From IMG/VR virus record IMGVR_UViG_3300027690_000141: 64,000 nt of DNA; one strand, 5' to 3'. The position numbers were made by a program, and so were the translations under genes. The notes below the pieces were generated by a model. It saw nothing but the letters and a program-made list of their open reading frames with translations. It was not told the DNA's origin and did no database searches. Position 1 is the stretch's first letter. The number at the start of each line of letters is the position of its first letter. The stretch comes from a virus. Positions 51,179-53,348 of this stretch are shown piece by piece.

Positions 51179-51391
51179 CTAAACTACACACTTCGCCCAT
51201 CGACAGAATTTCTCCATCGACACAGTTGGATAACGCCGCCCTATTCGCACTGCCGGACTGTCGTACTGCACCCGCAGACGATCTTCACTGACCCACAGCA
51301 CAGTCCGATCATCATACAGATCACTGAACACCGTCTTGTACGCCCTTTTTCCTCGGTACGTCTTGCCAACCTTGATCTCTACCGGATCCAC
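51179..51391 (-). CDS. Hypothetical protein
   Basis: 70 aa, IKVGKTYRGK; GGAGG RBS. Confidence 0.6.
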   Translation of the reverse strand: MDPVEIKVGKTYRGKRAYKTVFSDLYDDRTVLWVSEDRLRVQYDSPAVRIGRRYPTVSMEKFCRWAKCVV

Positions 51392-51450
51392 GACTCCTCC
51401 ATCTCCATCAGCACCTTCTCATTTGGTGTATCGTCATCAATCATTTTTTC

Positions 51451-51516
51451 TCCCAACATTCCGCATCACCAGCGGCGTAGTTCTTTGCGCCGCCTGCGTT
51501 CAGGCGCTCGTTAGCC
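51451..51516 (-). mobile_element. attC-like site (66 bp)
   Basis: GGCTAAC GAGCG CCTGAACGCAGGCGGCGCAAAGAACTACGCCGCTGGTGATGC GGAAT GTTGGGA; 2 nt after the upstream stop. Confidence 0.75.
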
Positions 51517-51518
51517 AT

Positions 51519-51731
51519 TTAAAGAATTTGGCGCAGATCAATGATCCTTCCAGACGGCATCTGTTCCTTCAGTTCCTTTTCGAATTGCGTACAATCGTCA
51601 TTATTACGCACTGCAATTCGATGAACAAAGACCTTGCATTTTGTCCCCCCCTCGGTCACGCCCTCCCACAAGCGGACCTTAACACCGTCAATGATCGTGA
51701 TTTTATCAGTGACTTCCATTTGCACCTTCAT
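51519..51731 (-). CDS. Cassette ORF, hypothetical (70 aa)
   Basis: MKVQMEVTDK...; RBS follows the R' GTTAGCA. Confidence 0.65.
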   Translation of the reverse strand: MKVQMEVTDKITIIDGVKVRLWEGVTEGGTKCKVFVHRIAVRNNDDCTQFEKELKEQMPSGRIIDLRQIL

Positions 51732-51746
51732 GTCTCTCTCCTTTCC

Positions 51747-51797
51747 TGCTAACACGGTAATCAGCGGCTTTCTGTCCGATCAATTTCCTGGTTATCA
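51747..51797 (-). mobile_element. attC-like site (51 bp, short)
   Basis: TGATAAC CAGGA AATTGATCGGACAGAAAGCCGCTGATT ACCGT GTTAGCA. Confidence 0.7.
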
Positions 51798-52153
51798 TCC
51801 GCTCTGCCATTTCCCAGCAACAACGTTCCCTCGTCCGGATACTCGGTGTAAAGGGCATACAGGCCGGGGCCGGAATGACTCGGATCGCCCTCCGCTACTT
51901 CGACAACAGTGACCTCTGTTTGCGGATCTCCTCCGAAAAACTCCAGTAAATCCTTTGCTTCTTGGTATGTGAAATCCATTTTGTTCCCCTGAGGGATAAT
52001 GCCGTCCTCTGGATTGACTTGTTGGGAGGCACCCTTCACAGCACGCCATAGATCGTAAATTATCTGGCCCTGGATATTATCGGCCAGCCATTCATGGTCA
52101 CTGAATAAAGTGTCCAGATGTTTGTATTTTTCGAACACTTCATTTATGGTCAC
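51761..52153 (-). CDS. Cassette ORF, hypothetical (130 aa)
   Basis: GTG start after GTTGGGAGG; stop lies inside the downstream attC. Confidence 0.65.
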   Translation of the reverse strand: MTINEVFEKYKHLDTLFSDHEWLADNIQGQIIYDLWRAVKGASQQVNPEDGIIPQGNKMDFTYQEAKDLLEFFGGDPQTEVTVVEVAEGDPSHSGPGLYALYTEYPDEGTLLLGNGRADDNQEIDRTESR

Positions 52154-52161
52154 AATAAGCC

Positions 52162-52219
52162 TCCCAACGATCAAGCTCAGCCGCGTCTTTTTGCGGTCGG
52201 CTGAAGCAACTGGTTATAC
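52162..52219 (-). mobile_element. attC site (58 bp)
   Basis: GTATAAC CAGTT GCTTCAGCCGACCGCAAAAAGACGCGGCTGAGC TTGATC GTTGGGA; L''/L' GCT[T]CAGC/GCTGAGC with an extrahelical base. Confidence 0.88.
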
Positions 52220-52220
52220 G

Positions 52221-52430
52221 TCAATATTCGACACGTTCAATAATAATTGGGTTTCCACACTTCGGGCAGATGACTTCTTCCCCCTCAATTTCGTCCCATT
52301 TGTTATTGAATATCGGAATTGCAAATATGCCGTCCTGGTCAAACTCACCATCCGACAAATCAAGTGTTTCGCCACAGTAGTTGCAATCAATGAACAGGTG
52401 CCAAGATAACGTTACTGTGCCTTTTTCCAT
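52221..52430 (-). CDS. Cassette ORF, Zn-ribbon protein (69 aa)
   Basis: CNYC...CPKC; AGGAGG RBS after GTTGGAC. Confidence 0.7.
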   Translation of the reverse strand: MEKGTVTLSWHLFIDCNYCGETLDLSDGEFDQDGIFAIPIFNNKWDEIEGEEVICPKCGNPIIIERVEY

Positions 52431-52443
52431 ATTTCCTCCTGAC

Positions 52444-52505
52444 GTCCAACTATCCTGATCACTTGCGCCGGACTTTCGGCGTCAAGTCGATTGGCTTTGT
52501 TAGCC
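52444..52505 (-). mobile_element. attC site (62 bp)
   Basis: GGCTAAC AAAGC CAATC[G]ACTTG[A]CGCC GAAAGTCC GGCGCAAGTGATC AGGATA GTTGGAC; both extrahelical bases present. Confidence 0.9.
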
Positions 52506-52713
52506 TTTCAAACTCGCCGTTACCGATGAATGGAGCTAAAGGCCACGAAAATCCGTGAGCGTATTGATCGCAACCTGCAACTCCATGATAATTCCATCTT
52601 CCGTCTCTTCCCTTAAAAACTATGCCAACAATCCATTCATCCGCCGAGAGGGGAAATCCGAAATTCTTTGTGCATTTGAACCGATACACACCAGATTTAT
52701 ACGGTCGTTTCAT
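52459..52713 (-). CDS. Cassette ORF, hypothetical (84 aa)
   Basis: Starts after GTTAGGC+GGAG; reads into the attC (LTKPIDLTP) and stops inside it. Confidence 0.65.
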   Translation of the reverse strand: MKRPYKSGVYRFKCTKNFGFPLSADEWIVGIVFKGRDGRWNYHGVAGCDQYAHGFSWPLAPFIGNGEFERLTKPIDLTPKVRRK

Positions 52714-52727
52714 TGCGATTCTCCGTA

Positions 52728-52755
52728 GCCTAACAAGCTGTTATCTGGACAGCCT
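52728..52755 (-). mobile_element. Collapsed/partial attC (R' GTTAGGC)
   Basis: AGGCTGTCCAGATAAC AGCTT GTTAGGC after the upstream stop; internal arms missing. Confidence 0.5.
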
Positions 52756-52941
52756 TTATTCTTCAATCTCCCGCAAAAAGTCCTGAATTTTGACGCTTTT
52801 ATAGCCGTCAAAACGTCTCGAATATCTCCGTCCGTAGAGAAGCAAAAAGAGTTCGTCAACACCATCAACCCACTTATCAGGGTCATCATCCAAGAAATAG
52901 TCGATAGCCTTTTTCAGCTTTTTACGTTCCTCTTTTGTCAT
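52756..52941 (-). CDS. Hypothetical protein (61 aa)
   Basis: MTKEERKKLKKAIDYF..., GGAG RBS. Confidence 0.6.
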   Translation of the reverse strand: MTKEERKKLKKAIDYFLDDDPDKWVDGVDELFLLLYGRRYSRRFDGYKSVKIQDFLREIEE

Positions 52942-52963
52942 TTCCGCTCCATCTCGCGTAGGG

Positions 52964-53281
52964 CTATAGAAGGCCGTCGCCGTTTTCGGTCGGCTGGACT
53001 GATTTGTTAGGCCAAAACACCTCAATCTCAATGGCTCTATCTGGTACGTTAATTCCGAGGTATTCCGAATATTCAAGAAAACAGTCCACGCACAACGACC
53101 CACCTCCATCATCTGGAACCCCCACTACATCGCGCCAAATTCTATCTTCCACGCTCCACCGCACCCGGAACGCCTTACCGCACATCCAACACGATTCATA
53201 GGGCCACCGCTTCAGTGTCAATGACCGCCATTGATAAATTAGCAGCCATCGGATTCGTCTAATCAGTCGTTTCAACACCAT
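52964..53281 (-). CDS. Hypothetical Zn-binding protein (probable cassette ORF)
   Basis: CWMC...LCVDC; C-terminus derived from an attC arm. Confidence 0.6.
   Translation of the reverse strand: MVLKRLIRRIRWLLIYQWRSLTLKRWPYESCWMCGKAFRVRWSVEDRIWRDVVGVPDDGGGSLCVDCFLEYSEYLGINVPDRAIEIEVFWPNKSVQPTENGDGLL
52975..53012 (-). mobile_element. attC left arm only
   Basis: GCCTAAC AAATC AGTCCAGCCGACCGAAAACGG; translates as PNKSVQPT at the end of the upstream ORF. Confidence 0.55.
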
Positions 53282-53348
53282 ATTAACCTGCGGCAACAGA
53301 GTAACTGGCGCCTCACAGGGAATTGGTGGAGTTGCCGTGGCACTGGGA

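What the first reader, a model, noticed from the sequence alone, without database searches (positions are those of the whole stretch)
51451..53012. Integron-type attC gene-cassette array inside a phage genome, with no integrase in the window
Seen in sequence: on the coding strand four intergenic elements of 62, 58, 51 and 66 bp (52444-52505, 52162-52219, 51747-51797, 51451-51516) have the full attC layout: R'' (xxxTAAC), 5-nt spacer, imperfect inverted L''/L' arms, spacer, R' (GTTRRRN). The 52444 site has both extrahelical bases (ATC[G]ACTTG[A]CGCC / GGCGCAAGTGAT). Each site starts at or before the upstream stop codon, and each R' is followed within about 25 nt by an RBS and start. R'' of a cassette tends to complement the previous R' (GTTAGGC/GGCTAAC; GTTAGCA/GGCTAAC), as expected for cassettes inserted from circles. 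There is no U-tract, so these are not terminators. Established: this is the substrate architecture of IntI integrases, and attC clusters without intI are called CALINs; they are regarded as rare in phages. Inference: this phage acquires or reshuffles accessory genes as integron cassettes, using a host IntI or an integrase encoded elsewhere in its genome.
Basis: partly seen in the sequence, partly recalled or inferred. Interest (0 to 1): 0.92.

Follow-up and report, generated by a model that had tools for sequence, protein, structure and literature searches.

The report
Decaying integron cassette array in phage
A large phage from a sediment metagenome carries a short row of small genes separated by integron-type attC recombination sites, only one still fully canonical and with no integrase in the record; this is a real but already described kind of element (a phage-borne CALIN).

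Summary
The hairpins are at the stated coordinates, and they are integron attC sites, not terminators or chance.

**Site scores.** I built two covariance models from real attC sites.
- Site 2 (52219-52162) fits the canonical geometry perfectly. It scores 34-37 bits (E about 1e-5), within the 32-66 bit range of held-out genuine attCs.
- Sites 3 and 1 score 18.9 and 14.9 bits. That is above the 12.6-bit maximum in 99 kb of control phage DNA.
- Site 4 is not supported.

**Homologues elsewhere.**
- The genes upstream of sites 1 and 3 have homologues in other contigs that are followed by strong attCs at the same position. These contigs include a Mu-like phage and an array that also holds a Dam methylase cassette.
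- One of those attCs is nearly identical to site 3.

**Decay.** The array shows a half site, a collapsed site, and a fused ORF with an internal R' relic.

**Context.**
- No tyrosine recombinase lies anywhere in the 95.7-kb record.
- Phage genes flank the array on both sides.
- A second two-site array lies outside the window.

**Novelty.** Phage CALINs were described by Qi et al. 2023 (PMC9892861). This scan has also reported phage cassette arrays on many other genomes. I class this as a new member of a known kind, of moderate interest.

The parts
52964..53296 (-). ORF of 110 aa (start uncertain), the first unit of the array. Its 3' end overlaps the half site.
   Evidence: No Pfam, PHROG or PADLOC hit. 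No relative found in IMG/VR.
52956..53012 (-). Half attC: a good left arm (R'' GCCTAAC, 5-nt spacer, 3 bp, bulged C, CAGCCG, bulged A) with no matching right arm.
   Evidence: R1 8.8 bits, rank 6 of 7 in the 64-kb window. Not reported by R2. The left arm resembles the real attC L088:2615-2684.
52756..52941 (-). ORF of 61 aa (cassette c0), 40% GC.
   Evidence: No family hit and no relatives.
52728..52755 (-). Collapsed attC: a short hairpin, then R''-like AGATAAC, 5 nt, and R' GTTAGGC (52734-52728). This R' marks the 5' boundary of cassette c1.
   Evidence: R1 6.6-9.0 bits, matching the R boxes only. The homologous cassette in L151 starts with GTTAGAC at a similar distance from the ATG (16 nt, against 14 nt here).
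52459..52713 (-). Cassette c1 ORF, 84 aa. Its last 15 or so codons are encoded by site 1.
   Evidence: 72% identical to P0010, carried in a Mu-like phage contig. Protein identity stops where the attC begins.
52444..52505 (-). attC site 1, degenerate. R'' is GGCTAAC and R' is GTTGGAC, with two bulged bases but 7/7-nt spacers and 5 bp between the bulges.
   Evidence: Fold z = -3.2. R1 12.3 bits, R2 14.9 bits (E 0.8 record-wide). It is the positional homologue of L151:6209-6266, which scores 33.7 bits.
52221..52430 (-). Cassette c2 ORF, 69 aa, zinc-ribbon-like, 42% GC.
   Evidence: Homologues at 73% identity in other phage contigs (L137-L140) have no attC, only a 27-nt spacer.
52162..52219 (-). 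attC site 2, canonical and probably functional. Layout: GTATAAC, 5 nt, GCT, bulged T, CAGCCG, bulged A, loop, CGGCTGAGC, 6 nt, GTTGGGA.
   Evidence: R1 33.9 bits (E 2.4e-5), R2 37.3 bits (E 7.7e-6). Zero mismatches in the 9-bp L box in a rule-based scan. Held-out true attCs score 32-66 bits.
51761..52153 (-). ORF of 130 aa formed by in-frame fusion of two cassettes. The N-terminal 58 aa (c3a) have lost their attC. A relic R' (ATTATCC, 52000-51994) precedes the ATG at 51979 of c3b, a conserved cassette protein of about 72 aa.
   Evidence: Residues 59-117 are about 75% identical to the 74-aa P0003, and the conserved part ends at GNGR. DNA alignment with L146 continues upstream into that cassette's R' GTTATCT.
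51747..51797 (-). attC site 3, a short 51-nt type with canonical spacing and two L-box mismatches. R' is GTTAGCA.
   Evidence: R2 18.9 bits (E 0.1), R1 7.1 bits. Nearly identical to L146:342-389, which sits in an unambiguous three-attC array, and homologous to L141:6179-6238 at 34.3 bits.
51519..51731 (-). ORF c4, 70 aa, member of a widespread family of small proteins.
   Evidence: 590 representative clusters at E<=1e-3. The three contexts sampled are phage-like and have no attC.
51451..51516 (-). It also reads as a 25-codon ORF. It is not supported as an attC, and may be a heavily decayed one.
   Evidence: No hit on the coding strand with R1 or R2. Fold z = -1.5. R'' matches the complement of the preceding R' at 6 of 7 positions (read).

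Best explanation
This is a cluster of integron attC sites lacking an integrase (a CALIN), embedded in the early/accessory gene block of a large tailed phage. Most of it is decaying.

Origin (inferred). Each unit, a promoterless small ORF plus a 3' attC, entered as an integron cassette. There are two possible routes. An integron integrase supplied in trans by a host could have inserted it, by attC x attC recombination or by attC x secondary-site recombination of the attG type (Loot et al., bioRxiv 10.1101/2022.09.11.507474). Alternatively, the phage captured a piece of an existing array.

Present state.
- The genes lie on the same strand as the neighbouring phage genes, have no promoter-like or terminator-like sites of their own, and are presumably read through from phage promoters.
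- With no IntI in the phage, nothing selects for the sites, so they erode.
- One site remains canonical (site 2). Two are degenerate but recognisable (sites 1 and 3). One has collapsed to its R boxes. One has lost its right arm. One was deleted, fusing two cassette ORFs.

Shown here: the identity of the sites, their homology to attC-bounded copies of the same genes elsewhere, and the phage context.

Inferred only: how the cassettes entered, and that site 2 alone would still be a good IntI substrate.
For: 1. Covariance models built from real attCs. Site 2 scores 33.9 bits (R1) and 37.3 bits (R2), E about 1e-5. Held-out real attCs score 32-66 bits.
2. Clustering and controls. The five best R2 hits in the record fall in two clusters, with noise at 10.6 bits or less. 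Control phage DNA gave no more than 12.6 bits in 98.8 kb with R2 and no R1 hit in 646 kb.
3. The same gene with an attC in other contexts.
   - The c1 homologue in a Mu-like phage is followed by a 33.7-bit attC.
   - c3b homologues are flanked by attCs of 28-42 bits in L141/L142, L144, L146, L149 and L143. Their neighbours differ: a Dam methylase, IS91, and BrnT/CopG.
4. Site 3 is nearly identical to L146:342-389.
5. Protein identity ends where the attC begins.
6. Orientation is the ordinary one. The bulged bases sit in the 5' arm of the coding strand, and the coding-strand scores exceed the opposite-strand scores.
7. The array is inside the phage. An SNF2 helicase, SbcCD-like genes and a methyltransferase lie upstream. 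A radical SAM gene lies downstream; the terminase and structural genes further on are taken from first-reader notes. An independent Logan assembly gives one 103.8-kb contig across the region with no differences.
8. Array GC is 47%, against 51% for the record. c0 and c2 are 40-42%.
9. Precedent: Qi et al. 2023 (PMC9892861).
Against: - Only one site reaches the score range of genuine attCs. By a 20-bit cut-off like that of Qi et al., applied to my own models, the window would hold a single attC and would not qualify as a CALIN.
- Both models are home-made. The training sites were chosen by a rule that already imposes canonical geometry, and calibration was short, so E-values are rough. R2 also contains attCs found through homologues of this window's own genes.
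- Site 4 fails.
- Homologues of c2 and c4, and one of c3b (L150), occur in phages without any attC. Some of these genes may therefore be ordinary phage genes.
- No IntI, attI or host is known, and no recombination was tested.
Confidence: 0.82

Rival explanations
1. The array is still an active cassette platform. All four (or more) sites are substrates of a divergent integron integrase, encoded by the host or by the missing third of the phage. Their low scores would only reflect a model trained on class 1-like attCs.
For: - Scores of sites 1 and 3 rise when metagenomic attCs are added to the model (R1 to R2).
- The short type seen at site 3 recurs almost unchanged in L146.
- The record is only 64% complete.
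- A second two-site array lies at the end of the record.
- Qi et al. found that 5 of 6 phage attCs recombine.
Against: - There is visible decay: a half site, a collapsed site and fused ORFs.
- Site 3 has two L-box mismatches that its L146 counterpart lacks.
- Site 1 has non-canonical spacing, whereas its L151 counterpart is canonical.
- No integrase was found in 95.7 kb.
Confidence: 0.12
2. The hairpins are ordinary phage intergenic regulatory structures, such as RNA-stability or processing sites, weak terminators, or translational-coupling elements. They would only resemble attC sites by convergence.
For: - They lie between small co-transcribed genes, just before each RBS.
- The purine-rich RBS region partly accounts for GTTRRR.
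- Sites 3 and 4 do not fold significantly better than shuffles.
Against: - Site 2 matches attC in both sequence and geometry at E about 1e-5.
- Homologous genes elsewhere carry high-scoring attCs, including in a bacterial-looking array with IS and toxin-antitoxin cassettes.
- There is no U-tract and no terminator call on the coding strand.
- Other phage contigs give no hits.
Confidence: 0.04
3. The array is host chromosomal integron DNA that reached the 'provirus' record through mis-assembly or wrong boundary calling.
For: - IMG/VR labels the record a provirus.
- The self proteins are also on record on contigs of up to 182,857 bp.
- The second attC pair lies at the extreme end of the record, on the opposite strand, next to ORFs with no phage family hit.
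Against: - The window array lies about 40 kb inside the record, with co-oriented phage genes on both sides.
- A second assembler gives the same uninterrupted sequence at uniform depth.
- The cassette genes have homologues in other phages.
Confidence: 0.02

Closest known systems
CALINs (clusters of attC sites lacking an integron integrase) in bacteriophage genomes: Qi, Rajabal, Ghaly, Tetu, Gillings 2023, Front Microbiol, PMC9892861
   Same: - attC-bounded, co-oriented small cassettes inside a phage, with no IntI.
- The cargo is phage-type genes. A related array (L141) even carries a DNA methyltransferase cassette, as theirs do.
- Inverted or isolated GTTRRRY motifs occur at the boundaries.
   Different: - This is an uncultured sediment phage with a T4-like head (head type per a first-reader note), not one of their 21 phages.
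- Most sites here are decayed.
- With a 20-bit threshold applied to my models, only one site would pass.
- I also show that the same cassettes occur in unrelated phage contigs.
Integron attC sites and cassette arrays of class 1 and class 1-like chromosomal integrons (Cury et al. 2016, IntegronFinder, PMC4889954)
   Same: - Site 2 has the same geometry: R box, 5/6-nt unpaired spacers, a 3 bp-bulge-6 bp-bulge L box, and a variable stem.
- Its sequence is very close to real sites such as L126:983-1054 (Methyloversatilis) and L088:2615-2684.
- Gene orientation is the ordinary one.
   Different: - There is no intI, attI or Pc promoter.
- The R boxes depart from RYYYAAC/GTTRRRY outside the AAC/GTT triplets.
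- The array sits in a virus and is eroding.
Isolated cassettes inserted at secondary genomic sites (attG; SALINs): Loot et al., bioRxiv 10.1101/2022.09.11.507474
   Same: Cassettes are found outside any integron platform, are expressed from neighbouring promoters, and plausibly arrived by IntI acting in trans.
   Different: There are several adjacent cassettes here rather than single ones. The insertion route was not tested.
PeSL-type mobile regulatory cassettes of T4-type phages
   Same: Small early genes are each flanked by a stem-loop, and modules are shuffled between phages.
   Different: Those elements carry an early promoter and are thought to act through homologous recombination. Here there is no promoter, and the sites match attC.

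Membership tests
attC site (integron cassette recombination site) | Conserved AAC in R'' and GTT in R', within RYYYAAC and GTTRRRY | tested here: met
   All four sites have both the AAC and GTT triplets. The full consensus is met only in part (GTATAAC/GTTGGGA at site 2; GGCTAAC at sites 1 and 4). Real attCs in the IntI1-like arrays also show GGCTAAC, GCATAAC and GTTATGC.
attC site (integron cassette recombination site) | L''/L' imperfect inverted repeat with two extrahelical bases in the 5' arm (3 bp, bulge, 6 bp, bulge), and 5-nt and 5-6-nt unpaired spacers next to the R boxes | tested here: met
   - Site 2: exact, with 0 of 9 mismatches.
- Site 3: correct spacing, 2 mismatches.
- Site 1: bulges present, but 7/7-nt spacers and a 5-bp segment.
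- Site 4: not met.
attC site (integron cassette recombination site) | Significant score against an attC covariance model | tested here: inconclusive
   Home-made models were used, not the IntegronFinder attc_4 model.
- Site 2: 33.9 and 37.3 bits, significant.
- Site 3: 18.9 bits (E 0.1).
- Site 1: 14.9 bits (E 0.8).
- Site 4: no hit.
Controls: true sites score 32-66 bits; noise reaches at most 12.6 bits.
attC site (integron cassette recombination site) | Recombined as a folded bottom strand by an integron integrase | not testable with these tools
   This needs an attC x attI conjugation assay.
CALIN (IntegronFinder definition) | At least two attC sites less than 4 kb apart, with no intI nearby | tested here: inconclusive
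   No intI or other tyrosine recombinase lies anywhere in the 95.7-kb record. With R2 at E<=1, three sites within 760 bp qualify. With R1 only one qualifies, because site 1 has E 1.4.
Mobile integron gene cassette | The same ORF-plus-attC unit occurs in different arrays with different neighbours | tested here: met
   - c1: the window versus the Mu-like phage contig L151.
- c3b: the window versus L141/L142, L143, L144, L146 and L149.
- Not met for c2 and c4.
Complete integron | intI gene with an adjacent attI and Pc promoter | tested here: not met
   TIGR02249 and PF00589 gave no match in the record. tblastn with IntI1 was negative in the window, in the rest of the record (L134-L136) and in all homologue contexts.

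The most novel reading that the evidence does not exclude
Unrelated phages of sediment and groundwater communities draw on one shared pool of attC-bounded cassettes that carry phage accessory genes. The phages seen here are this T4-like-head phage, a Mu-like phage, and the Dam-carrying contig L141. Bacterial arrays such as L143 draw on the same pool. Phages would then be regular participants in the integron cassette economy, and possibly a place where cassettes are born. The evidence for the second idea is that the same genes (c2, c3b) exist both with and without an attC.
Probability: 0.25. Interest if true: 0.7.

Novelty: new member of a known kind. Interest (0 to 1): 0.4.

Why it matters
Phage-borne attC arrays give integron cassettes a viral route between cells, and give phages a ready-made way to sample accessory genes.

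This locus adds two things to what is published:
- It is a clear example of how such an array decays once it has no integrase. It shows site erosion, site collapse and ORF fusion. The same decay would make such arrays invisible to standard thresholds.
- It gives direct evidence that identical cassette units sit in unrelated phages and in a bacterial-looking array.

It does not change the known picture. The kind was described in 2023, and this scan has met it repeatedly.

Tried and rejected
- Rfam: there is no attC family, and only three chance-level hits came up in 50.5-54.5 kb.
- Phage GenBank collection: one 107-bp match to a Moorella phage, so no close relative.
- Recombinases in the record: TIGR02249 and PF00589 gave nothing. 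PF00239 gave only a 12.7-bit sub-threshold match.
- The search for related loci found nothing with the radical SAM protein, the single c3 protein, the 110-aa ORF or the 61-aa ORF.
- 52 IMG/VR contigs sharing the neighbouring DUF5662 gene hold no attC and are too distant (62% aa identity or less) to compare gene order.
- The exact-sequence look-up of the window's own 69-aa protein was withheld.
- A degenerate pattern scan of IMG/VR gave mostly chance matches. Only 4 of 80 loci were canonical attCs, but those four sit in tandem arrays of 2-4 sites.
- PADLOC, PHROGs and Pfam gave no function for any cassette protein beyond a zinc-ribbon-like signal in c2 and partial matches of c3 to two PHROG families of unknown function.
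- Terminator reading rejected: there is no T-tract and no call on the coding strand.
- Mis-assembly rejected.
- A first relaxed Python scan timed out.
- No structure prediction or complex prediction was attempted. Neither would bear on the DNA sites.
Full report
**Setting**

- The window is the reverse strand of G000:C1:28514-92513, part of a 95,663-bp IMG/VR record labelled provirus and rated 64% complete by CheckV. It comes from a sediment metagenome.
- The finding lies in a dense run of small genes, all on the minus strand.
- Upstream of that run are an SNF2 helicase, an SbcCD-like pair and a methyltransferase.
- Immediately upstream is a DUF5662 gene, and immediately downstream a radical SAM gene.
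- According to other first-reader notes, a sugar/modification cluster, the terminase and the structural genes follow.
- An independent Logan assembly of the source run covers 49-56 kb in one 103.8-kb contig, with no differences.
- The array is therefore inside a phage genome and is not an assembly artefact.

**The observation**

On the coding strand the units are:

| Unit | ORF | Following element |
|---|---|---|
| c-1 | 110 aa | half site, 53012-52956 |
| c0 | 61 aa | collapsed site ending in GTTAGGC, 52734-52728 |
| c1 | 84 aa | site 1, 52505-52444 |
| c2 | 69 aa | site 2, 52219-52162 |
| c3 | 130 aa | site 3, 51797-51747 |
| c4 | 70 aa | site 4, 51516-51451 |

- The motif GSCTAAC occurs five times on this strand in 95.7 kb, and three of those are here.
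- Folding alone supports only site 1 strongly (z = -3.2). The others give -1.5 (site 4), -0.5 (site 2) and -0.1 (site 3).
- No terminator-like site is called on the coding strand, and promoter-like sites are at chance level.

**Test against real attC sites**

Rfam has no attC family, so I built my own models.

1. *Source of real sites.* I took IntI1 from plasmid R100. With it I fetched 80 loci carrying IntI1 or 73-77% identical chromosomal relatives, and extracted the attC sites of their arrays.
2. *What real sites look like.* They share a strict geometry: R'' of 7 nt, a 5-nt spacer, 3 bp, a bulged base (C in 53 of 64 sites), 6 bp, a bulged base (A in 55 of 64), a variable stem, a 9-nt L', a 5-6-nt spacer, and R'.
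3. *Model R1.* It was built from 50 of these sites. It recovers held-out sites from five other loci at 32-66 bits. It finds nothing in 646 kb of other phage contigs with default filters.
4. *R1 on the window.* With filters off, over the 64-kb window and both strands:
   - Site 2 scores 33.9 bits (E 2.4e-5).
   - Site 1 is second at 12.3 bits (E 1.4).
   - The collapsed site and the half site are also among the seven listed hits.
   - Site 3 appears only in a local search, at 7.1 bits. Site 4 matches only through its R boxes.
5. *Model R2.* It uses 31 of the same sites plus 12 attCs found later in metagenomic contigs, and none from this record. Over the whole record it gives:
   - site 2 at 37.3 bits;
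   - two sites in L136 at 25.6 and 22.7 bits;
   - site 3 at 18.9 bits (E 0.1);
   - site 1 at 14.9 bits (E 0.8);
   - then noise at 10.6 bits or less.
6. *Control for R2.* The best hit in 98.8 kb of unrelated phage DNA, filters off, is 12.6 bits.
7. *Independent scan.* A rule-based scan that does not use the models finds site 2 with zero mismatches in the 9-bp L box. That happened once in 646 kb of control DNA.

**Comparative evidence**

This is the stronger argument.

- *c1.* The closest homologue (P0010, 72% identity) sits in a Mu-like phage contig with GemA, Portal_Mu and a terminase.
  - It is followed by a 33.7-bit attC at exactly the position of site 1.
  - It is preceded by GTTAGAC 16 nt before its ATG. 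The window has GTTAGGC 14 nt before its ATG.
  - Protein identity ends where R'' begins.
- *c3.* Its C-terminal half (from Met59) is a conserved protein of about 72 aa. The conserved part ends at GNGR, and the tail is encoded by the attC. Its homologues are attC-flanked in several contigs:
  - L141/L142: three tandem sites of 34-35 bits, with a Dam methylase as the next cassette.
  - L144: 42.4 and 22 bits.
  - L143: 33.4 and 18.9 bits, beside IS91, BrnT/CopG and a nucleotidyltransferase, which looks bacterial.
  - L146: 28.6, 16.4 and 42.6 bits. L149: 31.2 bits.
- *Site 3.* L146:342-389 is almost the same sequence as site 3.
- *A fused ORF.* The L146 alignment continues upstream of Met59 into that cassette's R' (GTTATCT). 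The window has ATTATCC there, at 52000-51994. The 130-aa ORF is therefore two cassettes fused after the attC between them was lost.
- *Genes without attC.* Homologues of c2 (73% identity, L137-L140) and c4, and one c3b homologue in a 273-kb viral contig (L150), have no attC.
- No context contains an IntI.
- All attC hits lie on the coding strand of their neighbouring genes, which is the ordinary integron orientation.

**Interpretation**

- The elements are genuine integron attC sites. The block is a CALIN inside a phage.
- It is eroding. One site is canonical, two are degenerate, one is collapsed, one has lost its right arm, and one is deleted with an ORF fusion. Site 4 is unsupported.
- Array GC is 47%, against 51% for the record. 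c0 and c2 are 40-42%. That fits foreign origin.
- The most likely history is that a host IntI, acting in trans, inserted the cassettes, or that the phage captured part of an array. The sites then decayed because the phage has no integrase.
- How the cassettes entered, and whether site 2 is still used, are inferences.

**Comparison with what is known**

- Qi et al. 2023 (PMC9892861) screened 10,705 phage genomes. They found integron components in 21 of them, including 17 CALINs. They recombined 5 of 6 phage attCs with IntI1, and they noted methyltransferase cassettes.
- Loot et al. (bioRxiv 10.1101/2022.09.11.507474) showed that IntI inserts cassettes at secondary genomic sites.
- This scan's earlier notes also list many phage cassette arrays on other genomes. 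Some of those have inverted genes or their own recombinase. This one has the ordinary orientation and no recombinase.
- The locus is therefore a new member of a known kind. Two details are new: the visible decay series, and the same cassette units shared among unrelated phages.

**Caveats**

- Both models are home-made.
- The training sites were chosen with a rule that presupposes canonical geometry, so low scores for non-canonical sites do not exclude function.
- Calibration was short, so E-values are rough.
- R2 includes sites reached through homologues of the window's own genes.
- The host is unknown, and about a third of the phage may be missing from the record.

Noticed in passing
L136:1391-1452 and L136:2127-2185, minus strand (G000:C1:93790-93851 and 94526-94584, just beyond the window's first base): A second pair of attC hits (R2 25.6 and 22.7 bits; R1 21.7 bits for the first). 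They separate three ORFs of 326, 222 and 286 aa that run convergent to the phage late operon at the very end of the record. The ORFs have no Pfam, PHROG or PADLOC hit. One site lacks the AAC triplet (GCGCATC). These may be phage morons, or host integron DNA at the prophage boundary.
   Followed up: partly
L141:5924-6723 (NCBI GCA_029980085.1, contig JARPNB010000003.1; the same sequence as L142 and L148): Three tandem attCs of 34-35 bits share an AAAAAGAC loop motif with window site 2. They bound a 74-aa cassette and a Dam methyltransferase cassette, in a 44-kb contig full of small phage-like genes.
   Followed up: partly
L151:5854-6266 (JGI 3300027852, 36.7-kb contig): A Mu-like phage (transposase, GemA, Portal_Mu) carries the c1 cassette between a long 131-nt attC-like site (13.6 bits) and a canonical 33.7-bit attC.
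   Followed up: partly
L176, L180, L203, L218 (IMG/VR contigs of 66, 26, 5.7 and 27 kb): Tandem arrays of 2-4 sites with canonical attC geometry in further 'viral' contigs. They were found by a pattern scan followed by a rule-based check. Whether the arrays lie in phage DNA or in host flanks was not examined.
   Followed up: partly
window 51451-51525 and 51377-51445, minus strand: Two tiny ORFs of 25 and 22 codons are chained by overlapping stop/start signals (TAAATG, then ATGA, and the second tiny ORF's last codons overlap the GTG start at 51391). They lie between c4 and the 70-aa phrog_9722 gene. Whether either is translated is unknown.
   Followed up: no
L137:3888-4091 and L150:8001-8174: Close homologues of cassette genes c2 and c3b sit in other phage contigs with short spacers and no attC. 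The same genes therefore exist in both cassette and non-cassette form, which bears on how cassettes arise or lose their sites.
   Followed up: partly
window 53012-53006 and 52734-52728, minus strand: The R'' of the half site (GCCTAAC) and the R' of the collapsed site (GTTAGGC) are exact complements and bracket the 61-aa ORF. A weak L' remnant (GGCTG) lies near the right end. This could be one attC split by an insertion, or simply two consensus boxes.
   Followed up: partly
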